Assembly (NCBI GenBank): GCA_000091205.1
Contig: AP006500.2
Strand: one strand, 5' to 3'
Source of the DNA: Cyanidioschyzon merolae
Lineage: Eukaryota
Length of the DNA stretch: 64,000 nucleotides
Below, one piece after another: positions 4,790-55,330 of this stretch (position 1 is the stretch's first letter; each line of letters opens with the position of its first letter). The position numbers were made by a program, and so were the translations under genes. The notes beneath the pieces were generated by a model. It had not been told where the DNA came from. It did no database searches and saw nothing but the letters and a program-made list of their open reading frames with translations.

Positions 4790-5455
4790 TGCAGATACCA
4801 GTATGAAGAGGCGCGAAAAGTCATTCCAGGAACCGGCCTTGAATACCCGAACATCCACCATACCAGAATGAAGAGGCACGAAAAGTCAGAATGGTAGTGT
4901 GCCCTATGTACCCGAACATCCACCACACCAGATTGAAGAGGCACGAAAAGTCAGAATGGTTATGTGCACTACGCACCCGAACATCCACCATACCAGTATG
5001 AAGAGGCACGAAAAGTCATTCCAGGAACCGGCCTTGAATACCCGAACATCCACCATACCAGAATGAAGAGGCACGAAAAGTCAGAATGGTTATGTGCACT
5101 ACGCACCCGAACATCCACCATACCAGTATGAAGAGGCACGAAAAGTCATTCCAGGAACCGGCCTTGAATACCCGAACATCCACCGATACCAGAGTGAAGA
5201 GGCACGAAAAGTCAGAATGGTTATGTGCACTACGCACCCGAACATCCACCATACCAGTATGAAGAGGCACGAAAAGTCATTCCAGGAACCGGCCTTGAAT
5301 ACCCGAACATCCACCGATACCAGAGTGAAGAGGCACGAAAAGTCAGAATGGTTATGTGCACTACGCACCCGAACATCCACCATACCAGTATGAAGAGGCA
5401 CGAAAAGTCATTCCAGGAACCGGCCTTGAATACCCGAACATCCACCGATACCGAA
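4790..5455. repeat. Tandem array with higher-order structure: 130-131 bp unit made of two alternating 65-66 bp subunits sharing the core atgaagaggcacgaaaagtca, about 10 subunits, ending at the G6PD start codon
   Basis: Direct reading: ccagtatgaagaggcacgaaaagtcattccaggaaccggccttgaatacccgaacatccaccatac alternates with cagaatgaagaggcacgaaaagtcagaatggttatgtgcactacgcacccgaacatccaccatac. The 131-bp unit starts at about 4993, 5123, 5254 and 5384, with a variant copy from about 4798. Confidence 0.9.
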
Positions 5456-28599: not shown

Positions 28600-29810
28600 C
28601 GTACAGTGCTGGTGCGAGACGCCCGGAGCGTTCCATGCGGTGGGAAACGTCCCCGCCGCCTCCTCCTCCTCCTCGTGCACACAACCGACACCGCCAAAGC
28701 ACAAAGCGTGAAACGTGATCACTGGTACGGAATAGCGTCAACACTGGGTGCTTGTTCATGGATGGGCTATGGACGGTGGTCCCGGGCAGTGCCGTGCGGT
28801 GGGAAACGTCCCCGCCGCCTCCTCCTCCTCCTCGTGCACACAACCGACACCGCCAAAGCACAAAGCGTGAAACGTGATCACTGGTACGGAATAGCGTCAA
28901 CACTGGGTGCTTGTTCATGGATGGGTTATGGACGGTGGTCCCGGGCAGTGCCGTGCGGTGGGAAACGTCCCCGCCGCCTCCTCCTCATCCTCCTCCTCCT
29001 CCTCGTGCACACAACCGACACCGCCAAAGCACAAAGCGTGAAACGTGATCACTGGTACGGAATAGCGTCAACACTGGGTGCTTGTTCATGGATGGGCTAT
29101 GGACGGTGGTCCCGGGCAGTGCCGTGCGGTGGGAAACGTCCCCGCCGCCTCCTCCTCATCCTCCTCCTCCTCCTCCTCGTGCACACAACCGACACCGCCA
29201 AAGCACAAAGCGTGAAACGTGATCACTGCTACGGAACAGCGTCAACACTGGGTGCTTGTTCATGGATGGGTTATGGACGGTGGTCCCGGGCAGTGCCGTG
29301 CGGTGGGAAACGTCCCCGCCGCCTCCTCCTCATCCTCCTCCTCCTCCTCGTGCACACAACCGACACCGCCAAAGCACAAAGCGTGAAACGTGATCACTGG
29401 TACGGAACAGCGTCAACACTGGGTGCTTGTTCATGGATGGGTTATGGACGGTGGTCCCGGGCAGTGCCGTGCGGTGGGAAACGTCCCCGCCGCCTCCTCC
29501 TCATCCTTCTCCTCCGCCTCGTGCACGCAACCGACACCGCCAAAGCACAAAGCGTGAAACATGATCACTGGTACGGAACAGCGTCAACACTGGGTGCTTG
29601 TTCATGGATGGGTTATGGACGGTGGTCCCGGGCAGTGCCGTGCGGTGGGAAACGTCCCCGCCGCCTCCTCCTCATCCTCCTCCTCCGCCTCGTGCACACA
29701 ACCGACACCGCCAAAGCACAAAGCGTGAAACGTGATCACTGGTACGGAATAGCGTCAACACTGGGTGCTTGTTCATGGATGGGTTATGGACGGTGGTCCG
29801 GGTGCAAACC
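28600..29810. repeat. Tandem minisatellite, about 7 copies of a 159-174 bp unit containing a variable (CCT)n tract, immediately upstream (about 140 bp) of the RRM-protein start codon
   Basis: The unit ggtggtcccgggcagtgccgtgcggtgggaaacgtccccgccgcc(tcc)n tcgtgcacacaaccgacaccgccaaagcacaaagcgtgaaacgtgatcactggtacggaatagcgtcaacactgggtgcttgttcatggatgggttatggac recurs with period 159, 159, 171, 174, 170, 172 bp. The track ORFs 28525-29901 (+) and 28466-28918 (-) are translations of this repeat. Confidence 0.9.
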
Positions 29811-30679
29811 TGCTTGGCGGGTACCAACTTGGTCGTGGTTTACGCGTGTGACAAGCGTACCCGAAGCGCGTATCGTCATGAATGGATTTCGTGCTTGGTA
29901 GGCTGCGGACTGGATGCAAAGCTGCTCGATGCAGTGTAGCAGCGGAGTCGATGTTGGATAGCAGCAGTGTTTGGTTGACGTGCATCACTGGGGTTGCGTG
30001 AGTGAGGCATCAGGAATCACGTTATAGAAAAAGATGTATGTCAACGATGAGCACTCAGGGCATGATCGCGGGGGAGTCGAGGTCGCATCATCCGGCATCC
30101 GCAACGATCGAAAATGATGTTGCTTCCCTGCTGTTGGCGGCTATGTGTTCGGTACCAGGTATTGTGTTCGGGTGCAATACGCAACGTCCATCGCTCAACA
30201 AACATGAAGGATAAGTAGCATGGCGGAGGAGTTTCAGAGGAGCGCGGATCCCTGGACCGGTTGCGCTGCTCGCGCTCGGTAAATGTTTCCGATCCTGTTC
30301 TCGGCGAATAGGATCGATATTCAGAGAGCAGTAGTACAGGATTCGGGACACTAGGTCGACTTTTTGAAACGGCTGGTTCGGCGAGTTGCCGCTGCAATTC
30401 ATCAAGTCACTGAAATCAAGATGAATTGTGATGTCGGCGAACACCGGTGCCGCAAAGTAATCCATTTCGCGATCCAATGCATACGTACATGCCTCCACTA
30501 GTCCCATTTGCTTACACGCAGCACGCTGGAATCATGCGCTCTTCAACTTGTCGATCTTTCTGTTCTAAAAAAACTCCCGGGTGTAGTGATTCGCGTGGCT
30601 GGGTCCCCGGGCTCAGAAACTCAACGTCGTGCCTTGACGACTTTATATACAACTCCGGCCGAAATATCACTGAAACGCT

Positions 30680-30900: not shown

Positions 30901-31909
30901 ATCGTAGACGGGGTGGAATTTCTCGACTTGCTCTCTAGCCGAGATTTTCCTTCGGGTTCAAGTTCCATTATGGACGACAATGCGTTCCATGAATCCGGTA
31001 TTAACTGGAACAAAGTGAGTTTTCGTTGGTGCAGAAGAAAGCGATTGCGGTGAGGGCATTGCTCAGAAAAAGCGTGAGATCGTCGAGTACGGCACTGGGC
31101 GGATACCCGGCACAGAGGGTTACCGAGGCGAGCCTTCTCTACCCGTCCAGGGCAGGTACTGGGCTATGAAACAGGCGCATGTCGCACTGCAGGGCGGCCC
31201 ACGGAGCATGCATAATGGTGAATGCACGGGAGTACCTGACGAGTATCCTTTGGAAGCGCTGGGCGGGCCAAACCGGTGCTATATACAAAGAAAATGAAAA
31301 ACGCTCGAAGCGAAGATCATAACCTGCGACTGGGCCTGCATTGCGTCGGTAAAGAAAATGGAAAACGCTCGAAGCGAAGATCATAACCTGCGACTGGGCC
31401 TGCATTGCGTCGATAACAGCGTAGAGCACCGAAATCGGGATTTGAACGCTGTCCCCAACATCCTTCGAATACTGACAACAGAGCTGCAAGAACAGAAGAC
31501 ATCGCCGAATGTACATCCAGAGATAAGAAAGAGTGCGGATAAACAAAACAGTCACCGACAAATCCAGTCATGGCCGGTGTTGATAACATCAGAAACAACC
31601 CACAGCTCTCATGTGAGCGCCCCAGTACGAGCACCCGTTCCAGTTTGATTTGATATGCATATAGACGAACGTGGGAAAACGAACCCCAAACTCTGGATGA
31701 TTTCAAGACATACCCCAGAATATGAGTCCGAGACCAGGATGCATCCGGCAGGGCAGCGGCTGGTTTCGCGTCGCTGGTCGGGTACAGGACGAACACCACG
31801 AGGCCCCAATTAGTTTGCAATCCGAGCGAATCCACTCCGTCGGCACCGCTATCCGAATATCCCCGTCTTTCATCAACAACAGAGCAAGTGGCATGTTGGT
31901 GCTCAAACT

Positions 31910-36189: not shown

Positions 36190-36520
36190 CCGGGCGACAC
36201 AATGCATCCATCGATGAATGCCGGGAAGTATCGTCCAATAATATTCATTATTGACGCAATTTTCGAAGCAACCCGACACAATGCATCCATCGATGAATGC
36301 CGGGAAGTATCGTCCAATAATATTCATTATTGACCCAATTTTCGAAGCAACCCGACACGATGCATCCATCGATGAATGCAAGGAAGTATCGTCCAATGAT
36401 ATTCATTATTGACCCAATTTTCGAAGCAACCCGACACGATGCATCCATCGATGAATGCCGGGAAGTATCGTCCAATAATATTCATTATTGACCCAATTTT
36501 CGAAGCAATCCCCTGCGGGA
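36190..36520. repeat. Tandem array, 4 copies of an 81-bp AT-richer unit containing two near-palindromes, about 150 bp upstream of the NusG-like ATG
   Basis: Unit gacacRatgcatccatcgatgaatgccgggaagtatcgtccaataatattcattattgacccaattttcgaagcaaccc repeated from about 36193, 36276, 36356 and 36437. Near-palindromes: gcatccatcgatgaatgc and aataatattcattatt. Confidence 0.9.
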
Positions 36521-40629: not shown

Positions 40630-42906
40630 ATGGTTGAGTACAAGCCTATATCTTTCTGGACAAATCAGAGACACCATCGACAGCGACCTGCGATGGCATC
40701 CCTGTGGACGCGCGCGGCGGCGCCTCTGTCGCGCACCCAGCACACCCGCGTCCGACGGACAGCTCGCGGATGCGCTTCTGGTGCCGAACACCAGAGGCCG
40801 GTGTTCATGGCAACCACCGCAGAGGCAGCGGCGGCCTTGGCTTCAGATATAACACCCGAGGACTTTGCAGGCTATGAGTGTTTGCTGTGCCAACGCCGGG
40901 GTGCTCTCGTGGTCTGCAGCAACGCAGAGCGGTACACTTGTCGTGCTTGCGTCTGCAGGGCCTGCTTCCGACGCTGGGGCTGGTCGTGGGAGCGCTACAC
41001 AAGCGCCTCGGTTGACGTACCCTTTCTCTGTCCGAGATGTTTGGTGAGCGAGCCCATTCTAAGCTTCGAGACTGGAATGCTAGAGGAGGAGGAGGAGGAG
41101 GCGTCGCCACGCGCGTCAGAAGTTAGCGACACACCAACGTTGAGGGAGAAACTAAGCATGGTACAAGCGTTCTACGCGTGCAGCCGCAGCCCTCTTTTCC
41201 GCAGCGAGGACACGTACCGGAACGGTCGACGCCGTCCTGGGACCAAGTTCGGCACCACAGCATCCGAAACGCTCTCTGGCGTGAAGCGCTCGCCGAATCG
41301 AGTCTGCGTCTGGCGGCGGCTCGACGCTGCACCCGTCGCACGCTACACATCGGATGGGCGCGAGTTCTTCTGTAGACTCGGGGATGGGACGCATAGTCAT
41401 CATCCGCTTTTATGGTGCAGTGCATGTCCGGCAGCGTATCATGCGCCGAGTTGTCTCAGCGCCGCCGCTGCTGCTGCTGCTGCTGCTACATCAGTTACAA
41501 CGACAAGTCTGACATCGGATGAGCAGGAGCAGCAGAACGTTGCGACGACACCACGCACTGGTGTCGACGCAGACCGGCAAACATTCTGGCTCTGTCCGTT
41601 TTGCCGTCGCCAGCGTCTACCATGGTGGCAGAACAGCTCAGAATCAGCACCCGGTACCGTGCTGCAGAAACGACATCGACACCAGCGGGTGCAGCAGCGA
41701 CTGCGACAACCAGCGGCGCTGCTGGAGGCACTCGCGCGCTATTGTCGCAGAACCTGGCCGCCGCGTGTCTTCAGCGGACCCCGGTTCGTAGTGCTCTCTC
41801 TCTTTGACGGTTTGGCATCTGCGCGTCACGCGCTGGCCTTGCTGCAGATACCACCGACGCTCATCCGGTACTACGCTTCCGAGATCGATCGAGACGCACT
41901 GGCTGTGGCACAGTCGCAGTACCCGGACGTGCTTCAGCTGGGGCCAGTCGAGCACCTGGCCGCCTTTGACGACATTCCCGAGCAGATCGATCTGCTGATC
42001 GGCGGCTCACCGTGTACTTCCTTGAGCGGCCTCGGGAAGCGCAAAGGACTGTATCACGGCACATCGGCACTGTTTTTCGAGTTCCTGCGCATCAAACGCG
42101 TCATGAAACCGCGTTTTTACCTGTTCGAAAATGTAGCGTCCATGCGTTGTGCCGACAAGCGTCGCATTCACCAGCTGCTGAACGCGAGCAGACTCAACGA
42201 AGCAAGCACAAGTGCCGACCAACGAAAAAACAGTGTCCTGGTCGAGTTGGATGCAGCCCGTGTGACCGCGAGCCTGCGTCGACGCCTCTATGTGGCGAAC
42301 TTCCCGTTGCCCGCGACGGATGCCGCGCTCCCCGATTGGAACCTGCGTCTCCAAGACGTTCTAGATCGCGACGGTAGTATTGCCGAGTCGGCCAAGGCGT
42401 TCTGTATCACGACGAATAACATGCAGGGTCGTCCAGGAGATTCCCGTTTCAATGTGATTGCAATGCCGGAGCAGGGCGTGCGACGCGGAGTGCGCATCCA
42501 CGAAGCCGAAAAATGTCTCGGCTTTCCGGCAGGCTACACAGCGGTGTTGGCAAAGCGATCCGAGGGAGCAATGCCCCGACGCTGGCGACTCTTGGGGAAT
42601 GCGTTTGCACCACCGTTGATTGCGCTGCTTTTGAGGCCGCTGCTAGAGCACAGCGTGATCGGCGCGTATCTGGAGCGAGCTGCGGTGCTCCCGCACCTCG
42701 AAGCGGCCTGTCGGGAGCAACTCCGGGGTGATCGCCCGGAGGCGAACACGCTTGTGCTCGTGAAGGTTATGCTCCAGAGGCCATCGCATGCCCAGCTCAC
42801 TGGAGACGATGAGGGCACGGTGTCTTGCGAGTCGCGTATGCGCTCCGTGGCGGGCGCTCAGCGCACCAACAGCGATACCTGTCTTGTTCGGGGGAGCACG
42901 AGATAG
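40630..42906 (+). CDS. DNA (cytosine-5)-methyltransferase, DNMT3-like, with N-terminal Cys-rich PHD/ADD-type zinc fingers
   Basis: ATG at 40630, TAG at 42904-42906. Motif I VVLSLFDGLASARHAL, motif IV GGSPCTSLSG (PC), motif VI FYLFENVASM (ENV), motif X RLLGNAFAPPLIALLL. N-terminal Cys clusters: YECLLCQRRGALVVCSNAERYTCRACVCRAC, FLCPRCL, WCSACPAAYHAPSC, FWLCPFCRRQ. Confidence 0.8.
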   Translation: MVEYKPISFWTNQRHHRQRPAMASLWTRAAAPLSRTQHTRVRRTARGCASGAEHQRPVFMATTAEAAAALASDITPEDFAGYECLLCQRRGALVVCSNAERYTCRACVCRACFRRWGWSWERYTSASVDVPFLCPRCLVSEPILSFETGMLEEEEEEASPRASEVSDTPTLREKLSMVQAFYACSRSPLFRSEDTYRNGRRRPGTKFGTTASETLSGVKRSPNRVCVWRRLDAAPVARYTSDGREFFCRLGDGTHSHHPLLWCSACPAAYHAPSCLSAAAAAAAAATSVTTTSLTSDEQEQQNVATTPRTGVDADRQTFWLCPFCRRQRLPWWQNSSESAPGTVLQKRHRHQRVQQRLRQPAALLEALARYCRRTWPPRVFSGPRFVVLSLFDGLASARHALALLQIPPTLIRYYASEIDRDALAVAQSQYPDVLQLGPVEHLAAFDDIPEQIDLLIGGSPCTSLSGLGKRKGLYHGTSALFFEFLRIKRVMKPRFYLFENVASMRCADKRRIHQLLNASRLNEASTSADQRKNSVLVELDAARVTASLRRRLYVANFPLPATDAALPDWNLRLQDVLDRDGSIAESAKAFCITTNNMQGRPGDSRFNVIAMPEQGVRRGVRIHEAEKCLGFPAGYTAVLAKRSEGAMPRRWRLLGNAFAPPLIALLLRPLLEHSVIGAYLERAAVLPHLEAACREQLRGDRPEANTLVLVKVMLQRPSHAQLTGDDEGTVSCESRMRSVAGAQRTNSDTCLVRGSTR

Positions 42907-44219: not shown

Positions 44220-47200
44220 TTAACCTTTCTCGAGTAAACTCAATGTCAAGAGCACGATAAAAAGCAAGACCGCTGTGCGGTAAGTTGCCCCCAGACCAGG
44301 CCACTGTGCGAGCACGATCTGCACCAACAAGGACAACCAGAAGAGCGGCTCCGTCCAAACAGGCCAGGGTTTGGGCACCGGCTGTCGCTTCAGGAAACCG
44401 TTCTCGCCTATGACGAGCCGGGGAGAGATTCGTAAGCGTCGTAGTCGGCCCGAGGCCTCGTTGCCGTGTTGACGGGAACGTGCTACGGTCCGACTAGCGG
44501 AGGTGCGGCTCTGAAAGGCCGCCAAAACATACGCAGAGATGATACTCGAGGTCGCGTCAATCTCAATCCACTGAAAACAACGCGGATATGGCACGTCGTT
44601 CCAGCCATGGGCGAAGCTATAAACCGTCGTAACGAGCACAAGAACGTTACTCACGACTGCGGTCCATTCGATGAGTCCGTGGTCGGCCCAGGTGAGCTGC
44701 TCAGGTGGCCAGTTGCCTCCGAGGAGGCAGCTCAGCACGAAAAAGTGCCAAGTGATGTGCAAGATCCACAGCCCAATGGGCATGGACGGTTGATGCTCCA
44801 CAAGAGCAGATTCCACGACCAAGGATGCTGCGGACTGCTGCAATGCTCTCGCTCGTACCATGGCGAGATGTTGGTGCAGAATATGCCTACCGAGGCGCGG
44901 CAATAAGATAGCGTAGAGCGCCAGAAAGCCGGTATCCAGCGAGAAGAACATCTGGCTGAAGCGCTGAAGCAAACGACGACGCGAGCTACGACGCCAACGA
45001 GTTCCCAGTGAGGCACTCCGTAGACGTTGCAGAATCGCTACCCATCGTATCCCAGAGGCATCATGCTGGAGCCGAAACTGACTCAGAATTCGGATGAAAC
45101 ATTTTGCGGGATACCAGAGCGACGCCAGTGCCGAGGTATAGCGGCAGTGCAGTGCGCGTCGAAGCCATGAGCGCGGAGCTGCAGTTCGGGGCCTCCAGAG
45201 CCGCCCTGCTGAGCACGCAAGACGAAGACAACTGAGAAGCTTCCAAGTCGATCGTCGAGGCGCTCGCACAGCGGCTGACATGATCAACGCTCGCTCCGTA
45301 ACATTGCACGCTGGTGCTGGTGATATCGCTCCCGCTGGGACGAACTCGGAGGATCCAGACAGAATCTCGTGGACTGGACACGGTGCTCCATGTGCCCGAG
45401 TCTGCGCTCGTGTGCGGCTCACGCTGTGTAGGCCAGGAGACGAAGATGCATCCGCCGCTGATAATGACGACGATGACGATGACGATAAGGATATTGATGT
45501 TGATGGCGGAGCATTTGTGGCGGGAATACGCCTCCAGTGAGCATCCGCTGCGATAGGCTCCTGTGAGGCGTTGCAACTGCCGCTGCAAGCAGAGGTTCCC
45601 GGAGTCGTCACGGAGCGATGCGGGGAGCTCGAGGCAGCTGGCCTCGTGCGGTACGCTCCTGCCTCACTCGTGCTGCCTTTTGCCTCCTCCGCTTCGACAG
45701 CATCCATAGTAGGCACCGAGGCGGTAGCCGTGCCTGCAGCAGTTTCGTTCGCTGATGCAGTCTCGCTCTGGATAGCATCGGATGCAGATACCGTAGCAGG
45801 TATCGTATACCGAGTATCGCTTCTAGCATTGTGGTTCGTTGTTGCACTCTCGTGCTTAGCACTGGGTAGCTGGGTAGTCGCATTGGTGCACTGAGTGGAG
45901 ACTGTCTCCCCTGATTGTCCGTTTTCGCTACGAACGAGACGTTGCGAGACTGTCGGCTGCACCGCACTGGTAGCGCCTTGAAGCATCAACGGGACCTGCG
46001 GCGAGTTCTCTGGGGCTACGCTGTGCGCTGAGCTGCGCTCGACACCAGGTGACGATAAGACAGCAGCAGCAGCAGCAGCAGCGCTACGATGGACTGCTGG
46101 CTGCCTTAACCCCGCGGGCGACGCATTTGCAGGTGCAACACTCGGTTTTGGCAGACATGTCTGGTCCCAGAAAGGTCTCGTTGAGACAGGGCAGCGTGAT
46201 ACTCGCTCCGCGTCACTGATACGATCGCTTGACGCTGAGACCGGCGTCAGTATCGTCTGTCTAGAGACTTGTGTCGTAGCAATAGGTTTGACGAGTGACT
46301 CCCGCGAGCTTCTCTGAGTAAACGTACCCAAGGAGACGTTCTGGAGGGACGACCATGGACCCGGTGTGCAGGCGCTGAAGCGTTCTCTTTCATCCACCGG
46401 TATGCAAGGCGTGTCTGTGACAATGCTAAGCGGAAGTTGGAGGCTTGGTGTATTTTGCTCTGCGGCGGCATGGGAGCTGCGTATTCTTGGCGACAAAGCA
46501 GCAAGACTCGCGCTGTTTGATGCTTGCGAGTGATCCTTGCCCAAAGCAGGGATCCTGTCCACACCCTGACCGTGCATCATTGGCGGCAGCAGTGTTGCCA
46601 CATCCGCAAGATGCAATCGGTCCCGGGACTCGCTTTCACCAGTGCGAAAGAGCGCCCCTCGTACGTCGCTGTCGTCAGTTGAAGGCAACTCTGGGACTTT
46701 CCGTCGTCGCCATCCCCAGTCCTCTACCTGCATCGTCGCTGCATCGTTGCCGTGGCTCCAGTGACACTTGAAGGGCGCCGAGGCCGCCAAGGGAGTGCTC
46801 ATCAGAGATGCCCCAAGGCAGTCAACCGGAGCAGACGTGCTCGGCGACGGAGATGGATTGTCCAGAGTCTGCATTTGCTCCTCCTGTTGCTGCCGTTGAT
46901 GTTGTTGTTGTTGCTTCCAAATCGGGGAGAGACGCTGTTGAAGCGTCGGCAACAGGCTCGAAAATTCCAATTCCGAGCGATTCTCCGGATAATTTGTGAG
47001 CCACCACACGAGATATTTGTAAGCATCCTCCTCATCTGCCGGATGGAAAAATCGACAACGACTTTCACCACGGTAGCAGTTCGGCCAGAAGCGACACAGA
47101 CCGCGAGCTTTCTTCTTTGCCAATCCAGCCTGTGCTTTCTCGGATATCGATGTCGAGCTCGCTGCGGACGTCGTAGGCACGAAAGGGGTTCCGGTTTCCG

Positions 47201-48287
47201 ACGGCAGCGAACTGTTCGTGTGCCGCAAAGCTTGGTCTGCAGGTCGCGGCTCACGGCTCAAGCCTGCTCTGCGAGTTCCACTCGGTCGGCTGGAGAAGGG
47301 TCCAGCACGATGCCTAGACGACGACTCAGGTCCGTGATTTCCTTCACCAGGTTCAGTGCGTTCCTGACGCAAGTGACGCTGTGTGCTTGAAGGCAAGCTG
47401 GGTATGTCCCGCCCGAACGCATATCGCGGAGATGGCGACACTGCTCGATCGTAATGCCAACCCCGATCAAGCAGGCTCTCACTTACGCGCTCCATATCCT
47501 CGGTATGAGACGTCAAGTTGGGACTGTGCTGCCTGTTGGTAACGCTGGCTGGCGGCAGGACCACGTCCTCCGGTTCCAGCAAGTCTCGAATCATCGCGAC
47601 CATCAGGGAACTGCAACCGAGACTGATTTCGATATCCTCAGGTTCCTGGTCATGATCAGGATTATCTCTCAGTGATGCTTGTGCCGCAGATGCAACTGCC
47701 GGTGCTTGGAAGGTTGTCTTCGCGGACCCGGATTGCAAGCATGTCTCATGCCTGACGCTCGGCGGTAAGTTCGGGAAACGAGCGGGGAGGTCGCTTACAC
47801 TGGCCCCTCGATGCTCGGATGTGTGCAACGATACATACTCAGTGGCTTCAAAGGTCCCAAGTCCAGTCTTCGTCGCCGGACGGCCAACCCAGGCGGGGGA
47901 AGGCTGTTGCCGCGTCCCTTGGAGGCTCACTGGCGAAACCGGTGCACTTGCAGGAATGCGCTGATCGAACTGAGGTTCAGAACTCCAGTGAGGAGTTTCC
48001 CACGAAAATCTGCCAGACGCAGCTTCGGCCAGCAATGGGGGGCTGCTCGCGTCCCCGGGCGACAAGCCGCCACTGATGTGCCGCGCCTGTTCAACGTCCG
48101 CCCGCTCCGCACGCTGCGAACTCTGCTTGGTGCGTGAACCCTTAGAGCCCAAAGAAGGGAGGGCGAAACTTCCCGTCCGTGTACCCTCTCCGGGTGATGT
48201 CGCCATATCAGTCTTCAGGCGGGATGAAGCTTTGCTGCGCAAACCAGAGAAGCCATGTCCCTGTGCAGCATCGAGCGCCAACACCAT
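44220..48287 (-). CDS. Hypothetical large protein: about 800-aa Ser/Pro/Ala-rich low-complexity N-terminal region, a CCCH-like zinc-finger motif (CRFWPNCYRGESRCRFFH), and a C-terminal multipass membrane domain
   Basis: ATG at 48287. A 1355-codon open frame is far beyond chance length. The C-terminal about 300 aa have several hydrophobic helices (LWILHITWHFFVLSCLLGG, VVSNVLVLVTTVYSF, LFWLSLLVQIVLAQW, AVLLFIVLLTLSLL). Whether it is one gene or a fusion of two cannot be decided without transcripts. Confidence 0.4.
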   Translation of the reverse strand: MVLALDAAQGHGFSGLRSKASSRLKTDMATSPGEGTRTGSFALPSLGSKGSRTKQSSQRAERADVEQARHISGGLSPGDASSPPLLAEAASGRFSWETPHWSSEPQFDQRIPASAPVSPVSLQGTRQQPSPAWVGRPATKTGLGTFEATEYVSLHTSEHRGASVSDLPARFPNLPPSVRHETCLQSGSAKTTFQAPAVASAAQASLRDNPDHDQEPEDIEISLGCSSLMVAMIRDLLEPEDVVLPPASVTNRQHSPNLTSHTEDMERVSESLLDRGWHYDRAVSPSPRYAFGRDIPSLPSSTQRHLRQERTEPGEGNHGPESSSRHRAGPFSSRPSGTRRAGLSREPRPADQALRHTNSSLPSETGTPFVPTTSAASSTSISEKAQAGLAKKKARGLCRFWPNCYRGESRCRFFHPADEEDAYKYLVWWLTNYPENRSELEFSSLLPTLQQRLSPIWKQQQQHQRQQQEEQMQTLDNPSPSPSTSAPVDCLGASLMSTPLAASAPFKCHWSHGNDAATMQVEDWGWRRRKVPELPSTDDSDVRGALFRTGESESRDRLHLADVATLLPPMMHGQGVDRIPALGKDHSQASNSASLAALSPRIRSSHAAAEQNTPSLQLPLSIVTDTPCIPVDERERFSACTPGPWSSLQNVSLGTFTQRSSRESLVKPIATTQVSRQTILTPVSASSDRISDAERVSRCPVSTRPFWDQTCLPKPSVAPANASPAGLRQPAVHRSAAAAAAAVLSSPGVERSSAHSVAPENSPQVPLMLQGATSAVQPTVSQRLVRSENGQSGETVSTQCTNATTQLPSAKHESATTNHNARSDTRYTIPATVSASDAIQSETASANETAAGTATASVPTMDAVEAEEAKGSTSEAGAYRTRPAASSSPHRSVTTPGTSACSGSCNASQEPIAADAHWRRIPATNAPPSTSISLSSSSSSSLSAADASSSPGLHSVSRTRAQTRAHGAPCPVHEILSGSSEFVPAGAISPAPACNVTERALIMSAAVRAPRRSTWKLLSCLRLACSAGRLWRPRTAAPRSWLRRALHCRYTSALASLWYPAKCFIRILSQFRLQHDASGIRWVAILQRLRSASLGTRWRRSSRRRLLQRFSQMFFSLDTGFLALYAILLPRLGRHILHQHLAMVRARALQQSAASLVVESALVEHQPSMPIGLWILHITWHFFVLSCLLGGNWPPEQLTWADHGLIEWTAVVSNVLVLVTTVYSFAHGWNDVPYPRCFQWIEIDATSSIISAYVLAAFQSRTSASRTVARSRQHGNEASGRLRRLRISPRLVIGENGFLKRQPVPKPWPVWTEPLFWLSLLVQIVLAQWPGLGATYRTAVLLFIVLLTLSLLEKG

Positions 48288-49380: not shown

Positions 49381-52083
49381 TTAGGCCAAGAGTTTTCTGG
49401 AGGCTTTACGCGAGCCTCTACGGGCTGCAGGTTTCTTTTTTCCCGTCGTTCGCGGCTGAACGATGAGCGCATCCGCCGCTGTATCCGTTTCCGATTCGGT
49501 GCCGGTGTCTGGTGCAGCTGCTCCACGGGTGTCATCAATGACGACAGCACCATCCGCATCGAGTAGACCTGCGTTGCCGTCGCCGACGCTTTCGTTTTCG
49601 TTGTCCTGGGGGCGCTCGGGAACACCGCGGCGCCCAAGCGGCACCAGATGAACGGGGTGCTCGTGCTGCTGGTACGCTCTCGTCAGCGCAGCCTTGATAC
49701 TAGCGGGCACCTCAACACTTGGTCTAAGCCATAATTCATCCAGAAGCGAACGCCAGTGTTCCAGGGTCAACGAGTACACATCCATCGTATCCATGACGCC
49801 TGGAAGCGCATCGTTACCCTGCAGTACAAGAGGCACGACGAGCCGGTACGGTAACATCGGCCGATAGTCGAGCACCAGGGCACGCCTGTCGACAGCGCCG
49901 CCAAGAGCGCCCCCTGGACCACGTGCAGCCTGAAATCGTAACACCCAGTCGCTCAGCATACGCTGCATTTTCCCTGTTGTGCTGTTCTTGCCCAGCCAGG
50001 ATGGGAAATTAGGTCGTCCGCTCATCTGGGATCCGGCCATGGCGTGACCCGGCAGGATGCACGATAAAAAGGCCAGCACGTTGCTGAGGTCCCAGCGATT
50101 CTGTCGACGAATCTGATCGTTGGTGAGGTCTCCCCAGGAAATCGCGTCCGCGGCATCAGCCATGCAGCGCAGAGCGTACGGTGCATGTGTGGGATTCCGC
50201 TTTCCATTGGTGAAGAGCAGATAATTCTCCTGAACCATAAGCGGAAGGAGATCCGCGTCCATGAAAAAAGTTTCAAACAGGTCGCTCAAACCCGGTAGTT
50301 GTGCCGATGACTCGAGTGCTCCATGGTCGACGCGCGGGTCCACGTGCGGCGTCTGTCCTGGGAGGTGCCATCCCGGGCTGTGGAAGAACAGACCGAACAA
50401 CTGGAAAACAGACTGATCCTCAAAAGTCTTGCCCAGGAATTCGTTCAACTGCTTCACATCCATGTAACTGAGGCGTTCTGAACTGCTTCCGCTGTAGAGC
50501 TGCATCATGGTAATCATTTGACGAATGTCCCCGTGGCACGCTTCAGCAAGCTTCTCCAAGGCGGCATCGTCAACGCGCAGACCCTCTTTCTGGGCGATCT
50601 CCTGCAGACGTTTCCTAATCTGGCTCCACATCGGGCGGCGGAAGCGCAGGTAAAGCGTTGAATATTTGAGCGTTCGTAAATTCGGACTCGAATCGTCGTT
50701 GCAGATGCAGATAATGGGTACTCGCGACTTTCTAATGAGTCGCGAGAGTTCCGCGAGACCCCCGCGATCACCCGATGACATGCCGTCGATTTCATCCATG
50801 ATGAGTACCTGGCCCTGCGGAGCGGGTAATTTGTTTCTCCAAAGACCCTTGCTGGTGCCGGCTAACTCCAAGTGTGGGCGCCCCTGACCAAAGGCATGCA
50901 TCGTTCGCGAGCGCAGCAACTCGGCTACGGTTTCATGGAGCGAAGAACGGTTCCGTGTATCACTCGCATTGAACTCGATAGGTTCGTAGCCACATTGCCG
51001 AGCAACAGCATGAGCTGCACTCGTCTTTCCGATTCCAGGCGGACCTGCAAGCAGCGCTGCCCGCGGAAGTTTGTTGTTCCCGTTCGTAATGCGGCCTCTT
51101 GAACCATTCGCTGAACTCGATCGGTTGCTGGTATGATCAGCTGCGCCATAGACCTGGCTCCAGGTACGTAACCAATCCTCGAGTTGCTTGAGTACACCCG
51201 GATTCGCTAGGAGCTCTGTCGCCTGCCGCGGATGATACTTCACTGTCCACAGCTCTGCTTGGGCATTCATTCGCGCGGGCACATTCTCCTTGGTCTCCTG
51301 TCTCGGCACAGCGGCATCAGAGCGGGGACGCGGTGGCGACGGCCGTCGACCTTTTGGTGGCGGAGCCAGTGCCTGCTCCAACTGAGGGTTCACAGGCGGC
51401 TTGGTGTCTCTCGAGCGCTCTCGAATCAGCGCAAAAACACCATCCTCATCAAGAACCGTGATGCTGGGCCTGCTTGCAGCGAGCTGCATCTTCTTGGGTC
51501 CTGGATCCGCCCCGGCAACAAGATAGTTCAGGTTGCGCGTGACGCTCTTGCAAACATGACCACCGTTGGCACGAATGAGATCCTCCATCTCCTCGCGCGT
51601 CAAAGAGTCCATTACGCCTGTGATGCAAAAGTTCAAGCCCGAAAGACAGTCGGGGCTTCCACGAGGTGGCGGGGCCTTCTTCCCACGTAACGGAGGCGAC
51701 ATGACCTGTTGAACGTGCTCCCAGACGCGCTGTCGTATGCTCTCTCGACTGGGTGTTGGTGTCTCAGCTTCCGCGACGTTCTCACCTGGTGAAGAGCCCC
51801 GAGGTGCTCCCGCTCGGGCTTGCGTCACTCTGGGTGGCGTGACAAGGTGCTCGTCCACGTTGACTAACGATCGCTGAGGGCTTTGCTCGAGCCCAGTGGA
51901 GCGCGCTTCAGCTTCTTCAACTGCGCTCTGCCTTGCCCGTTTGCGTGGCGTCGTTTCTCGTGCTTGCGCTGTAGCCGCTGAGGCCGACTCCGGTTCCCAG
52001 TCTGCACCAAGGGCATCCTCCTCGTCATCGTCGATGATGACGCGCCTCCTGGAAACGCTTGACTTGCGGCTCGGGCCCGGCAT
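49381..52083 (-). CDS. RFC1: Replication factor C large subunit (RFC1): BRCT domain plus AAA+ clamp-loader module
   Basis: ATG at 52083. BRCT: LNFCITGVMDSLTREEMEDLIRANGGHVCKSVTRNLNYLVAGADPGPKKMQLA. RFC1 box: ELWTVKYHPRQATELLANPGVLKQLEDWLRTW. Walker A GPPGIGKTSAAHAVA, Walker B/DExD VLIMDEIDGM, sensor-1 ICICND. 900 aa. Confidence 0.88.
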   Translation of the reverse strand: MPGPSRKSSVSRRRVIIDDDEEDALGADWEPESASAATAQARETTPRKRARQSAVEEAEARSTGLEQSPQRSLVNVDEHLVTPPRVTQARAGAPRGSSPGENVAEAETPTPSRESIRQRVWEHVQQVMSPPLRGKKAPPPRGSPDCLSGLNFCITGVMDSLTREEMEDLIRANGGHVCKSVTRNLNYLVAGADPGPKKMQLAASRPSITVLDEDGVFALIRERSRDTKPPVNPQLEQALAPPPKGRRPSPPRPRSDAAVPRQETKENVPARMNAQAELWTVKYHPRQATELLANPGVLKQLEDWLRTWSQVYGAADHTSNRSSSANGSRGRITNGNNKLPRAALLAGPPGIGKTSAAHAVARQCGYEPIEFNASDTRNRSSLHETVAELLRSRTMHAFGQGRPHLELAGTSKGLWRNKLPAPQGQVLIMDEIDGMSSGDRGGLAELSRLIRKSRVPIICICNDDSSPNLRTLKYSTLYLRFRRPMWSQIRKRLQEIAQKEGLRVDDAALEKLAEACHGDIRQMITMMQLYSGSSSERLSYMDVKQLNEFLGKTFEDQSVFQLFGLFFHSPGWHLPGQTPHVDPRVDHGALESSAQLPGLSDLFETFFMDADLLPLMVQENYLLFTNGKRNPTHAPYALRCMADAADAISWGDLTNDQIRRQNRWDLSNVLAFLSCILPGHAMAGSQMSGRPNFPSWLGKNSTTGKMQRMLSDWVLRFQAARGPGGALGGAVDRRALVLDYRPMLPYRLVVPLVLQGNDALPGVMDTMDVYSLTLEHWRSLLDELWLRPSVEVPASIKAALTRAYQQHEHPVHLVPLGRRGVPERPQDNENESVGDGNAGLLDADGAVVIDDTRGAAAPDTGTESETDTAADALIVQPRTTGKKKPAARRGSRKASRKLLA

Positions 52084-53104
52084 ACTTGACTATTGCAAGT
52101 CTATAGCAAATACGTTGTTCGGTGGTATGGCAAGGTGTTGACGGCAGTAGCGCCTGCGAAGCGCAGACATGTGCGCGCGCAGCCGTCGAGGTCGTTTACC
52201 GGTGATGCTTTTCGCAGAAGCGCGATGCTCAGAGTACACACGCCTTGTGCGGAAACGACGATCGAATAAATGAGCAGAAAGAACTTGCAGGGCGAGTCAG
52301 TCGCACTCGTGCGAGATGCAGGATGCTCGCTTTGCGCATAAAACGTCATCGGTACACGCGCATGGTACATGTTTTCGGGTGGTATATGGATCGCACCATG
52401 GCAACCCACAGGTGCATTCTGTACGCGAGGTAGCGACAGCGACTTGTGTATCAGGCGGCTCGTGTCCAGGGCAGGGGGTCCAGGCTAGGCACGCCCCGTG
52501 CTCGGGTTCGTACAACGACTCGCAGACCGTGTGCTTGGATTTCGATTTCCCTCACCCAATATGATAGCGTGGGAGCGAGCGAGAGAGACAGAGAATCTCC
52601 AGGGCGTCCAAGCAACGTGAAACGTGCGGTTGCGCTTCGTACTGCTGGCATTCGCGCAGCCGAGTGCCGCTGACGAGGTCCGTGAATCCTGTCACAAAAA
52701 AAAAGCTTTGTCTTCTCTCCAGAGCTCTGGACGCCGAGTGAACGCTCCGCAACTACCTCGATCCAGGAAGCACAGGTCCAGAGATGCCCAGAGCGCTTCC
52801 ACTTTTAGTCCCAAACGAGCGTATCTGTCCGGCACCTGCTCTGAAAATGAAAATGCCCCATGCAACCCAGTCGGTCCGCCTTGAACCGAAAAGGTGCACA
52901 CATCCCACGCAAGAGCGTACCGTACCGCCTTGATGCTCAAGGTATATGGTTCGACACCGGCTCCCGTCCCCTGGAACATGCCACATCCAGAGCGCAGGAT
53001 GAGGTGTTTCCCGGGCACAGGAAGCGTGCAAAGCGCCGACGCTCGAACGCCGCCTTCTCATCAGCGATGTCTTGCCTATACTAAAAACATCGCAGTACAG
53101 TGAT

Positions 53105-53830
53105 CATCATTAAGGTCATCATCACCATCATCATCAGCGATGCCTCTGTTATGATATACATCATACTACATTGATAATCATCATCTTCATCATCATCGTC
53201 AGCGATGCCTCTCATATTCCATACATCATTATACATTGATAAGCATCATTATGGTCATCATCATCATCTTCTTCTTCTTCATCAGCGATGCCTCTCATAT
53301 TCCATACATCATCATACATTGATAAGCATCATTATGGTCATCATCATCATCTTCATCTTCTTCTTCTTCTTCGTCCGCGACGCCTCTCATATTCCATACA
53401 TCATTATACATTGATAAGCATCATAATCGTCGTCGTTAACATCATCATCATCATCTTCTTCTTCATCAGCGATGCCTCTCATACTCCATACATCATCATA
53501 CATTGATAAGCATCATTATGGTCATCATCATCTTCTTCTTCTTCTTCGTCCGCGATCCTCTCATATTCCATACATCATCATACATTGATAATCATCATAA
53601 TCGTCGTCGTTAACATCATCATCATCATCTTCTTCTTCATCAGCGATGCCTCTCATATTCCATACATCATCATACATTGATAAGCATCATTATGGTCATC
53701 ATCATCATCATCTTCTTCTTCTTCTTCTTCGTCCGCGACGCCTCTCATATTCCATACATCATTATACATTGATAAGCATCATTATCGTCGTCGTTAACAT
53801 CATCATCTTCTTCTTCTTCAGCGATAACCG
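53105..53830. repeat. Tandem array of about 8-9 units (about 80-100 bp), each = (CAT)n/(CTT)n microsatellite + agcgatgcctctcatattccatacatcatYatacattgataagcatcatta; each unit carries a GATA-type motif (TGATAAG); the array ends about 200 bp upstream of the S2P protease ATG
   Basis: Direct reading. agcgatgcctct recurs at about 53126, 53200, 53283, 53369 (variant), 53463, 53539, 53643 and 53733. Track ORFs in this interval (MPLIFHTS...HHHH) are translations of the repeat. Confidence 0.88.
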
Positions 53831-54037
53831 TTGCTACAGCGCCAAAGCAGCGTGTGCGGCAGGCGCGCCGCGCACCCCCAACGTGAAGATCGACTGCCTC
53901 CGACGTCGCCGACTCACGGTTTTCAGTACCAAGCAGAGGTCGTGAGCGTCTCCTGAGGCGTGTGCAATTCTTGAGTGCTTGTTTCCATTCGTCCCTCGAA
54001 AATCTATCGATTTGAGTAGGTTCCGGATCCAGACTAT

Positions 54038-55330
54038 ATGGTTGAGGCATTCGTTTGGTCGGTTGCAGCGGCAAAAGTCCCACGTACGGGCCGTCACACT
54101 CTTGGGGCGCAGCGGCAAGCCTACAAGCCAGGGAGTGCAGAGCTGTCGGCGTGGCGGTGTCCGCAGAGACGCCTGAGTGCTAGCAAGAGACCAGCACTTG
54201 TCGCATCAATAGCTACCGAGGCTGGCGTGAATCTAACGGGAGTTTTCATTCTCGCGGGGACGGTGGTGATCCACGAGCTTGGGCACTTTCTCGCTGCTCG
54301 CCTGCAAGGTATTAAAGTGAAAGGGTTCTCTATAGGCTTCGGGCCTCGCCTTTTCAGCTTTCGACCGAAAAACTCGGAAACAGAGTTCGCGATTCGGCTC
54401 CTTCCACTTGGGGGCTTTGTCGCCTTCCCCGAAGACTATCGATACGATGAGGAGTCGAAAACCATCGTCAAGAATGACGATCCTGATTTGTTGCAGAATC
54501 GGCCGTTGATGCAGCGTGCACTGGTGATCGCTGCGGGCGTCCTTGCGAATATCGCGCTCGCTTGGACGCTGCTTTTCACTTCAGTTGAGACGGTTGGCGC
54601 TCCGCGGATGCAGTTTGAAACGGGAGTTTCAGTGCCGGCGCTTACGGACATGAGCGCTCCTGCAGCGAAGGCCGGACTCAAGCCAGGTGACGTCATTGTC
54701 GCAGTGAACGGCCAAGCGCTGGCACCCGGTGCGGAATCCGCGTTGGAGGCTGCGAACATGTTACGGCGCCTCGCCGCAGATCCCCAGCACAAACCGATCG
54801 AGCTGCAGCTTTCAGACGGAAGAGTAGTACGAGTGGATCCCGAAGGGGGCCGCATCGGCGTGCAGCTGGTCCCCAATGCGAAAGTATCGCGTGAGCGAGT
54901 CCCTCTACGGAATGCTGTACCAGAGACCAACAAGGAGTTTGTGAATACCTTACGCAATACGATCAACGGTTTCATCACGCTGTTTTCGAATCTCAAAGAA
55001 AACAGCAAGGAGCTCAGCGGCCCGCTCGGCGTGGCATCCATAGGTGCCGAAATCGCTCGCCATGATGCCTCTGTCCTCCTGCAGTTTGCTGCAGTCATTT
55101 CGCTGAATTTAGGGATCATCAATGCGTTACCGTTGCCGGCTCTGGATGGCGGTCAGATGGCCTTTTTGATTGTCGAAGCGATTCGTGGGAAACCGTTGCC
55201 ACGGAACCTCGAGAATGCGATCAATGGGACTGCGCTAACCCTGTTGCTGGTGATGAGTGGGTTCCTGCTCATAGGCGACCTTGAACGGATTCAGGTGCTG
55301 TCGTGGCTGATGAATGGCCCTTCGCCGTGA
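54038..55330 (+). CDS. Site-2 protease / RseP-like M50 intramembrane zinc metalloprotease with PDZ domain (plastid ARASP/EGY-type), with an N-terminal presequence
   Basis: ATG at 54038, TGA at 55328-55330. HExxH in TM helix: VVIHELGHFLAARLQG. Second M50 motif near the C-terminus (LNLGIINALPLPALDGG, LDG). PDZ-like LKPGDVIVAVNG between membrane segments. Architecture as in bacterial RseP. Confidence 0.8.
   Translation: MVEAFVWSVAAAKVPRTGRHTLGAQRQAYKPGSAELSAWRCPQRRLSASKRPALVASIATEAGVNLTGVFILAGTVVIHELGHFLAARLQGIKVKGFSIGFGPRLFSFRPKNSETEFAIRLLPLGGFVAFPEDYRYDEESKTIVKNDDPDLLQNRPLMQRALVIAAGVLANIALAWTLLFTSVETVGAPRMQFETGVSVPALTDMSAPAAKAGLKPGDVIVAVNGQALAPGAESALEAANMLRRLAADPQHKPIELQLSDGRVVRVDPEGGRIGVQLVPNAKVSRERVPLRNAVPETNKEFVNTLRNTINGFITLFSNLKENSKELSGPLGVASIGAEIARHDASVLLQFAAVISLNLGIINALPLPALDGGQMAFLIVEAIRGKPLPRNLENAINGTALTLLLVMSGFLLIGDLERIQVLSWLMNGPSP

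What the first reader, a model, noticed from the sequence alone, without database searches (positions are those of the whole stretch)
53105..53830. GATA-motif-bearing tandem array upstream of the plastid-type S2P protease gene
Each of the roughly 8-9 units contains the sequence attgataagcatcatta, i.e. a WGATAR (TGATAAG) site, next to CAT/CTT microsatellite tracts, and the array stops about 200 bp before the S2P ATG. A periodic array of GATA sites is a plausible cis-regulatory module; GATA factors mediate light and nitrogen responses in plants and algae. It could equally be a neutral satellite.
Basis: partly seen in the sequence, partly recalled or inferred. Interest (0 to 1): 0.5.

Follow-up and report, generated by a model that had tools for sequence, protein, structure and literature searches.

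The report
Hypervariable minisatellite upstream of S2P gene
The periodic GATA sites are real, but they are one short motif copied along a young, copy-number-variable tandem repeat between two genes of the red alga Cyanidioschyzon merolae, so this is most likely an ordinary unstable minisatellite and not a dedicated GATA regulatory module.

Summary
The window is Cyanidioschyzon merolae 10D. The array is real. It runs 53058-53835 and holds one degenerate unit plus eight units of 65-92 bp. All eight carry TGATAA and six carry TGATAAG. It lies in the 1.95-kb divergent intergenic region between RFC1 (-) and an M50/PDZ site-2 protease (+), and ends 203-219 bp before the S2P ATG.

- The array is absent from the syntenic RFC1-S2P spacer of Cyanidiococcus, related lineages and Cyanidium. 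WGATAR there is at chance level.
- Outside the array, WGATAR is not enriched in intergenic DNA of the window (0.84/kb against 1.42/kb expected).

In C. merolae-like environmental contigs with 98-99.9% identical flanks, the same locus carries 3-8 units in different orders (289-757 bp). A metagenome scan found the unit nowhere else. The GATA hexamer is no better conserved than the rest of the unit. Five other unrelated minisatellites lie in the same 64 kb; none has a GATA site and at least two differ in copy number.

Best reading: a lineage-specific, single-locus hypervariable minisatellite with GATA as a passenger. Any effect on expression is untested. Low interest.

The parts
49381..52083 (-). 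RFC1 (replication factor C large subunit) coding sequence. It is the left, divergently oriented neighbour. Its ATG at 52083 lies about 975 bp from the array.
   Evidence: 900-aa ORF. Pfam RFC1, BRCT and AAA domains. Identical to BAM82313.1 of C. merolae 10D.
52084..53057 (.). Unique, non-repetitive part of the intergenic region, GC about 57%.
   Evidence: 98.3-99.2% identical among C. merolae-like haplotypes. No blastn or tblastx similarity to the Cyanidiococcus or Cyanidium spacers. No Rfam match outside the array.
53058..53134 (.). Degenerate first unit (u0, 73 bp from the CAGCGAT anchor at 53062). It carries no GATA site and marks the 5' edge of the array.
   Evidence: Direct-repeat family D2 starts at 53058. 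Unit parse. Shared by all haplotypes, with 2-3 differences between the two haplogroups.
53135..53199 (.). Unit u1, 65 bp, site TGATAAT.
53200..53282 (.). Unit u2, 83 bp, type A (TTATGGTCATC tail), site TGATAAG.
53283..53374 (.). Unit u3, 92 bp, type A, site TGATAAG.
53375..53466 (.). Unit u4, 92 bp, type B (AATCGTCGTCGTTAAC tail, CCGCGA head), site TGATAAG.
53467..53549 (.). Unit u5, 83 bp, type A, site TGATAAG.
53550..53640 (.). Unit u6, 91 bp, type B, site TGATAAT.
53641..53732 (.). Unit u7, 92 bp, type A, site TGATAAG.
53733..53818 (.). Unit u8, 86 bp, type B. This last unit is near-identical in most haplotypes. Site TGATAAG, 268 bp before the S2P ATG.
53819..53835 (.). Partial repeat at the 3' edge (CAGCGATAACCGTTGCT). 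It repeats the CAGCGAT head of the unit, so the same short direct repeat bounds the array on both sides.
53836..54037 (+). Unique proximal upstream region of S2P (presumed core promoter and 5' UTR). It contains no WGATAR.
   Evidence: 98-100% identical in all haplotypes. The nearest WGATAR site to the ATG is at 268 bp, inside the array.
54038..55330 (+). Site-2 protease (Peptidase_M50 + PDZ, RseP-like) coding sequence.

Best explanation
The feature is a lineage-specific, single-locus, hypervariable minisatellite (VNTR) in the divergent RFC1<->S2P intergenic region of Cyanidioschyzon merolae.

A segment of about 70-90 bp bounded by the short direct repeat CAGCGAT, and ending in (CAT)n/(CTT)n microsatellite, was duplicated after the split from Cyanidiococcus. 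Since then the array has expanded, contracted and reshuffled by replication slippage and unequal exchange. The first and last units stayed fixed while the interior turned over. The mechanism of expansion is inferred, not shown.

The single WGATAR (TGATAA[G/T]) site of the founding unit was copied along with everything else. That explains why all sites share one orientation and sit at unit-length spacing.

Nothing in the sequence shows that the sites are maintained for a GATA factor. The most any function is likely to be is a non-specific effect of an AT-rich, variable-length spacer on the S2P promoter.
For: Shown:
- Array anatomy. There are 8 units of 65-92 bp plus a degenerate edge unit, with the CAGCGAT repeat at both borders.
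- The array is non-coding. There are 8-35 stop codons in each of the six frames, and unit lengths are not multiples of 3.
- Copy number and unit order differ among contigs whose flanks are 98-99.9% identical. Array spans are 289, 381, 473, 587, 587, 650 and 757 bp, equal to 3-8 GATA units, in two haplogroups. The edge units are conserved. The same 587-bp allele was recovered from two independent samples, and a third contig (L027), cut off inside the array, matches that allele over the units it holds.
- Many short-read contigs end exactly at the array edge.
- Every multi-copy hit of the unit in the metagenome collection is this same locus. No dispersed copies were found.
- The array is absent from the syntenic spacer in Cyanidiococcus, three related lineages and Cyanidium. 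In Cyanidium the spacer is only 125 bp.
- WGATAR in those spacers is at chance: 1 against 2.7 expected, 3 against 2.6, 4 against 3.3, and 0 against 0.1.
- Of the 53 non-microsatellite columns, 37-39 are invariant. TGATAA is not more conserved than its neighbours. The base after it is split between G and T, and two units read CGATAA.
- WGATAR outside the array is 0.84/kb in intergenic DNA against 1.42/kb expected.
- Base rate: five other unrelated minisatellites lie in the same 64 kb, mostly intergenic, and none has WGATAR. The 79-bp array at 36195-36508 has 2-4 copies in relatives. The 171-bp array has 6.7 copies here against 1-2 in relatives.
- GATA spacings of 65, 83, 92, 92, 82, 92 and 92 bp are not multiples of the helical repeat.
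Against: - A C2C2-GATA family is reported in C. merolae (PMC4827209), so a reader for the sites may exist.
- GATAA is invariant in all 20 units first compared and in every further unit read. The distal-most site lies only about 270 bp from the S2P ATG, where a promoter element could act.
- Copy-number differences come partly from short-read metagenome assemblies, which can collapse tandem repeats.
- The GATA enrichment test covers one 64-kb window, not the genome.
- No expression, chromatin or binding data were available.
Confidence: 0.75

Rival explanations
1. GATA (or I-box) cis-regulatory module. The repeated TGATAAG sites recruit a GATA zinc-finger or I-box-binding factor cooperatively and place S2P (or RFC1) under light or nitrogen control.
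For: Eight same-strand WGATAR sites in 778 bp, six of them TGATAAG, which also contains the I-box core GATAAG. The array ends about 200 bp before the ATG. GATAA is kept in every unit of every haplotype. The C2C2-GATA family is reported in C. merolae.
Against: - No array and no excess of WGATAR in orthologous spacers.
- WGATAR is depleted, not enriched, in other intergenic DNA of the window.
- Site number varies 3-8 among near-identical haplotypes.
- The hexamer is no better conserved than the rest of the unit, and the flanking G/T is not fixed.
- Spacing is not helically phased.
- A random 92-bp unit of this composition has roughly a 1-in-3 chance of containing a WGATAR (my arithmetic base counts).
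- Nitrogen regulation in C. merolae is attributed to the MYB factor CmMYB1, not to a GATA factor (PMC4620153).
Confidence: 0.08
2. Non-specific 'tunable promoter' VNTR. The AT-rich (37.5% GC) array of variable length changes nucleosome occupancy or the distance between upstream elements and the S2P core promoter. Copy-number alleles would then give different S2P (or RFC1) expression, as described for unstable promoter repeats in yeast (my knowledge: Vinces et al. 2009, Science).
For: The array lies inside a divergent promoter region, 203 bp from the ATG. It is the lowest-GC stretch of the window at the 750-1000-bp scale. Copy number is polymorphic while the 202-bp proximal region is 98-100% conserved. 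Other minisatellites of the window also sit just upstream of genes, for example 36195-36508, which is 160 bp before the NusG/SAP gene.
Against: There are no expression data. Intergenic location is where neutral repeats are tolerated anyway. This reading is compatible with the best explanation and adds only an untested consequence.
Confidence: 0.12
3. Core of the regional centromere of this chromosome. C. merolae centromeres are single 2-3-kb stretches of relatively low GC (48.4% against 55%) per chromosome.
For: The array is the lowest-GC island in the window, and the 2-kb window around it is 49.1% GC. A+B unit pairs of 175-184 bp are close to a nucleosome repeat length. The centromere description comes from 10.1101/096016, citing Kanesaki 2015.
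Against: - At the 2-kb scale two other regions of the same window are equally low, at 49.2% and 49.9%.
- The low-GC part is only 0.78 kb.
- The 1.95-kb spacer is about the genome-average intergenic length (16.5 Mb with 4775 genes).
- The published description says the centromeres show no pattern other than low GC.
- The prior is about 5% that any 64-kb window holds the one centromere of a 1.25-Mb chromosome.
- The ChIP-chip coordinates could not be obtained.
Confidence: 0.02
4. Tandem cluster of box C/D snoRNA-like genes on the minus strand. There, (CAT)n reads as UGAUGA (C box) and TCAG as CUGA (D box).
For: Sub-threshold cmscan hits to archaeal C/D sRNA families on the minus strand of several units, with best E = 0.0008 and 28.9 bits.
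Against: - Scores of 17-29 bits fall well below the gathering thresholds of 35-50.
- The alignments rest on the (GAA)n and (GAU)n low-complexity tracts, and the model's only stem is scored as non-pairs.
- CUGA is replaced by CGGA in 3 of the 8 units (u4, u6, u8).
- Both flanks are purine-rich and cannot form a terminal stem (read directly from the sequence).
- The putative guide region differs between units and haplotypes.
- No Rfam family reaches its gathering score anywhere in the window.
Confidence: 0.01

Closest known systems
Hypervariable minisatellites / VNTR loci (Jeffreys-type; my knowledge)
   Same: Head-to-tail units of tens of bp. Copy-number polymorphism between close relatives. 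Interspersed unit variants (types A, B and C) whose order differs between alleles. Stable, more diverged edge units. A single chromosomal locus.
   Different: The array is small (under 0.8 kb, 3-8 units), AT- and pyrimidine-rich rather than GC-rich, with embedded trinucleotide microsatellites. It sits in a compact, nearly intron-free algal genome. Mutation rate and mechanism were not measured.
Unstable tandem repeats in yeast promoters that modulate expression (Vinces et al. 2009; my knowledge)
   Same: Located in a promoter region, AT-rich, variable in copy number among strains, next to a conserved proximal promoter.
   Different: No evidence here that copy number changes expression or nucleosome occupancy.
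GATA / I-box elements of light- and nitrogen-regulated promoters (WGATAR; GATAAG)
   Same: TGATAAG matches both consensus sequences, and multiple sites lie within 1 kb of a start codon.
   Different: The sites arose by tandem duplication of one site. They are absent from orthologous promoters, variable in number and not specially conserved. The known nitrogen regulator of this alga is a MYB factor.
C. merolae regional centromeres (Kanesaki et al. 2015, as summarised in 10.1101/096016)
   Same: Locally low GC in a gene-free stretch.
   Different: The low-GC stretch is shorter (0.78 kb against 2-3 kb). At the 2-3-kb scale it does not stand out within the window. CENH3 data are not available here.

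Membership tests
Minisatellite / VNTR | Tandem head-to-tail units of roughly 10-100 bp | tested here: met
   TRF periods of 65 and 92. Eight units of 65-92 bp plus a degenerate edge unit.
Minisatellite / VNTR | Copy-number polymorphism among closely related genomes | tested here: met
   3-8 units (289-757 bp) in contigs with 98-99.9% identical flanks. Unit order also differs, which assembly collapse alone cannot explain. One allele was recovered independently in two complete contigs and matched by a third, cut-off one. Caveat: these are short-read assemblies.
Minisatellite / VNTR | Single locus, not a dispersed or satellite-block repeat | tested here: met
   All multi-copy hits of the unit core in the metagenome collection map to the RFC1-S2P spacer. 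No other copy in the 64-kb window. The complete 10D genome itself could not be scanned.
Minisatellite / VNTR | Non-coding | tested here: met
   8-35 stop codons per frame. Unit lengths are not multiples of 3.
GATA-factor cis-regulatory module | Cluster of WGATAR sites near a promoter | tested here: met
   8 sites in 778 bp, the nearest 268 bp from the ATG.
GATA-factor cis-regulatory module | Sites or array conserved in orthologous promoters | tested here: not met
   No array in L011-L016. WGATAR there is at the chance level expected from composition.
GATA-factor cis-regulatory module | Motif more constrained than surrounding sequence | tested here: not met
   37-39 of 53 columns are invariant. 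The W position varies in 2 of 20 units, and the base after TGATAA is split between G and T.
GATA-factor cis-regulatory module | Motif enriched in promoters of the genome | tested here: inconclusive
   Within this window only: 0.84/kb in intergenic DNA against 1.42/kb expected, so no enrichment. A genome-wide test was not possible.
GATA-factor cis-regulatory module | Occupancy by a GATA factor and dependence of expression on the sites | not testable with these tools
   Needs ChIP or DAP-seq and promoter mutagenesis. The C2C2-GATA family is reported present in the species.
C. merolae regional centromere | CENH3 enrichment, one site per chromosome | not testable with these tools
   Kanesaki 2015 and Maruyama 2008 are not held. 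No other paper gives coordinates for this chromosome.
C. merolae regional centromere | 2-3 kb of GC about 48%, distinct from its surroundings | tested here: inconclusive
   49.1% GC over 2 kb, but two other 2-kb regions of the window reach 49.2% and 49.9%. Only 0.78 kb is strongly AT-rich.
Box C/D snoRNA cluster | Match to a curated family at its gathering score | tested here: not met
   Best hit 28.9 bits against a threshold of 50. The alignments are to low-complexity tracts.
Box C/D snoRNA cluster | C and D boxes conserved in every copy, with a terminal stem | tested here: not met
   CUGA is absent from 3 of 8 units. The flanks are purine-rich on both sides and cannot pair (read directly from the sequence).
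Box C/D snoRNA cluster | Guide complementarity to rRNA | not tested

The most novel reading that the evidence does not exclude
The array is an evolvable promoter 'dial'. Its 3-8-unit alleles, each unit carrying a TGATAA[G/T] site in AT-rich DNA, would set different expression levels of the plastid site-2 protease (or of RFC1) in different hot-spring populations of C. merolae. The effect could come from the dosage of a GATA or I-box factor, or from nucleosome exclusion.
Probability: 0.12. Interest if true: 0.45.

Novelty: new member of a known kind. Interest (0 to 1): 0.15.

Why it matters
As a neutral minisatellite it matters little biologically. It has three practical uses:
- It is a ready-made, highly discriminating VNTR marker for typing C. 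merolae strains and environmental populations.
- It explains why short-read assemblies break at this locus.
- It warns that motif 'arrays' inside tandem repeats count as one observation, not many.

This 64-kb stretch of a genome described as unusually simple holds six minisatellites, and at least three differ in copy number between relatives. Interstitial tandem repeats may therefore be a larger source of intraspecific variation in Cyanidiales than the literature found in the searches made here suggests. Only if copy number were shown to tune S2P expression would the locus become a useful model, since C. merolae allows homologous-recombination engineering.

Tried and rejected
- **Coding acidic repeat on the minus strand.** (CTT)n/(CAT)n reads as GAA/GAT, that is Glu/Asp. 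Rejected: 27-35 stop codons per minus-strand frame, and unit lengths are not multiples of 3.
- **C/D snoRNA cluster.** Rejected as a low-complexity artefact.
- **Dispersed repeat or transposon fragment.** Rejected: every multi-copy metagenome hit is the same locus.
- **Conserved hidden gene or RNA in the unique part of the spacer.** No blastn or tblastx similarity to orthologous spacers and no Rfam hit outside the array. The short ORFs called there by metagenome pipelines change length between haplotypes.
- **Inverted repeats or cruciform.** None found.
- **Centromere.** Could not be tested. Kanesaki 2015 and Maruyama 2008 are not held. The 2007 genome paper gives no coordinates. A literature search for this chromosome returned nothing.
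- **Locating the window on the chromosome through CAP-D2 (CMR484C).** The 1355-aa neighbouring ORF has no Pfam domains, so there is no anchor.
- **Exact-protein look-ups.** Those for the 10D S2P, NusG/SAP and G6PD proteins found nothing. The adaptin look-up worked and gave the comparison for the other arrays.
- **Literature on interstitial minisatellites in Cyanidioschyzon.** Only telomere papers were found.

Full report
**Identity of the window**

The two genes flanking the finding are identical to proteins of Cyanidioschyzon merolae strain 10D. The 900-aa RFC1 (49381-52083, minus strand) is BAM82313.1. The 430-aa Peptidase_M50 + PDZ protease (54038-55330, plus strand) is BAM82314.1. Both lie on a 1,253,087-bp chromosome. 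The accessions are consecutive, so no gene is annotated between them. The protease's closest relatives outside red algae are cyanobacterial RseP proteins at about 45% identity. The finding therefore lies in a 1,954-bp divergent intergenic region. This is about the average intergenic length for a 16.5-Mb genome with 4,775 genes.

**Observation**

The array is real. TRF reports a 92-bp period with 6.2 copies at 53255-53819 and a 65-bp period with 2.3 copies at 53116-53266. A 20-nt core matches eight times, only inside the array, and never in shuffles.

I parsed the array on the anchor C[AC]GCGA[TC]. The parse gives:
- a degenerate 73-bp unit u0 (53062-53134) with no GATA site;
- eight units of 65, 83, 92, 92, 83, 91, 92 and 86 bp (53135-53818);
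- a partial repeat, CAGCGATAACC..., at the 3' edge.

The same short direct repeat, CAGCGAT, therefore bounds the array on both sides. All eight units carry TGATAA (WGATAR). Six carry TGATAAG. Each unit ends in (CAT)n(CTT)n, with or without a (CGT)3-TTAAC insert. This defines two unit types that alternate in the distal half of the array.

The array has 37.5% GC against 56.6% for the window, and its plus strand is 64% pyrimidine. It is non-coding: every frame has 8-35 stop codons, and unit lengths are not multiples of three. No inverted repeats were found.

**Is the GATA excess meaningful?**

Eight same-strand WGATAR sites in 778 bp exceed the roughly 3.4 expected from the array's own composition (my arithmetic from the base counts). 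But the sites are copies of one ancestral site. A single 92-bp unit of this composition has about a one-in-three chance of containing a WGATAR on either strand. With the composition of ordinary intergenic DNA of this window the chance is about one in eight (density).

Site spacings of 65, 83, 92, 92, 82, 92 and 92 bp are simply unit lengths and are not helically phased. Across the 20 units of four haplotypes, 37 of the 53 non-microsatellite columns are invariant. The TGATAA hexamer is not better kept than its neighbours. Two units read CGATAA, and the following base is split between G and T.

**Comparison with relatives: the decisive evidence**

RFC1(-)/S2P(+) synteny is conserved across Cyanidiales. 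The spacer is 125 bp in Cyanidium caldarium (L016). It is about 1.46-1.62 kb in Cyanidiococcus yangmingshanensis (L011) and in most related lineages, where S2P is about 77% identical (L012-L014). In L015 it measures 2.1 kb, because the RFC1 call there is truncated.

None of these spacers contains the array or anything similar by blastn or tblastx. Their WGATAR counts are at the chance level expected from composition: 1 against 2.7, 3 against 2.6, 4 against 3.3, and 0 against 0.1. L012-L015 carry an unrelated 79-bp x 2 duplication in the same spacer.

Within C. merolae-like environmental populations the flanks are 98-99.9% identical to 10D. The 202 bp between the array and the ATG are 98-100% identical. 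The array itself differs greatly. Complete arrays span 289, 381, 473, 587, 587, 650 and 757 bp, which is 3, 4, 5, 6, 6, 7 and 8 GATA-bearing units. Unit orders differ and include a 65-bp unit type absent from 10D. The first unit or units are shared within each haplogroup, and the last unit is near-identical in most haplotypes.

The 587-bp allele was recovered from two independent samples. A third contig, cut off inside the array, matches it over the units it holds. Several contigs stop exactly at the array edge, the usual sign of a repeat that short reads cannot span. A pattern scan of the metagenome collection with the unit core returned six multi-copy contigs. All were this same locus, and there were no dispersed copies.

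**Context within the window**

WGATAR is not enriched in intergenic DNA outside the array: 0.84/kb against 1.42/kb expected. In coding DNA it is 0.64/kb against 1.09/kb.

The window holds five other minisatellites of unrelated sequence:
- 4795-5452
- 15907-16070
- 28659-29799
- 31287-31416
- 36195-36508

They are mostly intergenic and often just upstream of genes. None contains a WGATAR. In environmental relatives the 79-bp array has 2-4 copies, against 4 in 10D. The 171-bp array has 1-2 copies, against 6.7 in 10D. The 64-bp duplication is stable. Unstable intergenic minisatellites are thus a recurring feature of this genome, and one in six carrying a GATA site is what chance predicts.

**Mechanism**

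Shown: a tandem array bounded by a short direct repeat; a diverged edge unit; interior turnover with fixed edges; two-unit (A+B, 175-184 bp) duplications; length variation of the internal trinucleotide tracts; restriction to the C. merolae lineage.

Inferred: the array began with a duplication between the CAGCGAT repeats. It then expanded and contracted by replication slippage and unequal sister-chromatid or homologous exchange. The embedded (CAT)n/(CTT)n tracts probably favour this. Homopurine-homopyrimidine (GAA/CTT) runs are known to stall replication (my knowledge).

The GATA site is a passenger. Any function would most plausibly be a non-specific effect of a variable AT-rich spacer on the S2P promoter, as described for unstable promoter repeats in yeast (my knowledge). 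That is untested.

**Rivals**

- **GATA or I-box module.** Not excluded in principle, because C2C2-GATA proteins are reported in C. merolae. It fails the conservation, constraint and enrichment tests above. Nitrogen control in this alga is attributed to CmMYB1.
- **Centromere.** C. merolae centromeres are single 2-3-kb regions of about 48% GC. The 2-kb window around the array is 49.1% GC, but two other regions of the same window match it, and only 0.78 kb is strongly AT-rich. The ChIP-chip coordinates were not obtainable. I give this about 2%.
- **C/D snoRNA cluster.** Minus-strand sub-threshold hits to archaeal C/D sRNA models rest on the (GAA)n and (GAU)n tracts. They score 17-29 bits against thresholds of 35-50, and CUGA is lost in three of the eight units. 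No Rfam family reaches its gathering score anywhere in the window.

**Verdict**

The 'neutral satellite' alternative is supported. This is a new example of a well-known kind of sequence, a hypervariable minisatellite. Its practical value is as a strain-typing marker, and biological interest is low unless copy number is shown to affect S2P expression.

Noticed in passing
window 4795-5452, 15907-16070, 28659-29799, 31287-31416, 36195-36508: Five further minisatellites of unrelated sequence lie in the same 64 kb, with periods of 65/131, 86, 171/345, 64 and 79 bp. They are mostly intergenic and often just upstream of genes: G6PD at 5348, and a NusG/SAP-domain gene at 36668. This density is high for a genome described as unusually simple.
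   Followed up: partly
window 36195-36508 and 28659-29799; loci L032-L041: These arrays also differ in copy number in environmental C. merolae-like contigs. The 79-bp array has 2-4 copies against 4 in 10D. The 171-bp array has 1-2 copies against 6.7 in 10D, and four contigs end at its edge. Part of the 171-bp difference could be short-read assembly collapse.
   Followed up: partly
window 28762-29901 (+): A 379-aa ORF runs through the 171/345-bp array (97% identical units). It has no Pfam match. It could be a repeat protein or simply a stop-free repeat.
   Followed up: no
L012-L015, about 660-817 bp into the RFC1-S2P spacer: Cyanidiococcus-like lineages carry an unrelated 79-bp x 2 tandem duplication in the same intergenic region. 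Tandem duplications have therefore arisen independently in this spacer in sister lineages.
   Followed up: no
L016 5876-6000 (Cyanidium caldarium) against window 52084-54037: The divergent RFC1/S2P gene pair is syntenic across Cyanidiales. The spacer ranges from 125 bp in Cyanidium to 1.95 kb in C. merolae, with no detectable sequence conservation.
   Followed up: partly
window 40630-42906 (+): A 758-aa ORF with a C-5 cytosine DNA methylase domain (Pfam PF00145, E = 2e-21). A DNA_methylase gene is also near RFC1 in Cyanidium (L016).
   Followed up: no
window 53244-53733 (-): Sub-threshold cmscan hits to archaeal C/D box sRNA families (sR52, sR5, sR55, sR2). They are caused by (GAU)n and (GAA)n tracts that mimic C boxes and A-rich spacers. 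This is a low-complexity artefact worth remembering for other CAT/CTT microsatellites.
   Followed up: yes
protein cluster of window 54038-55330 (P0124): A 45-aa 'hypothetical protein CL3_33390' from a human-gut bacterial genome (butyrate-producing bacterium SM4/1) sits in the same 90%-identity cluster as the C. merolae S2P. This may be contamination or a clustering quirk.
   Followed up: no
window 44220-48287 (-): A 1355-aa ORF next to RFC1 is conserved as a 1356-aa gene in the Cyanidiococcus-like contigs L012-L015. It has no Pfam domain at E <= 1e-5.
   Followed up: no
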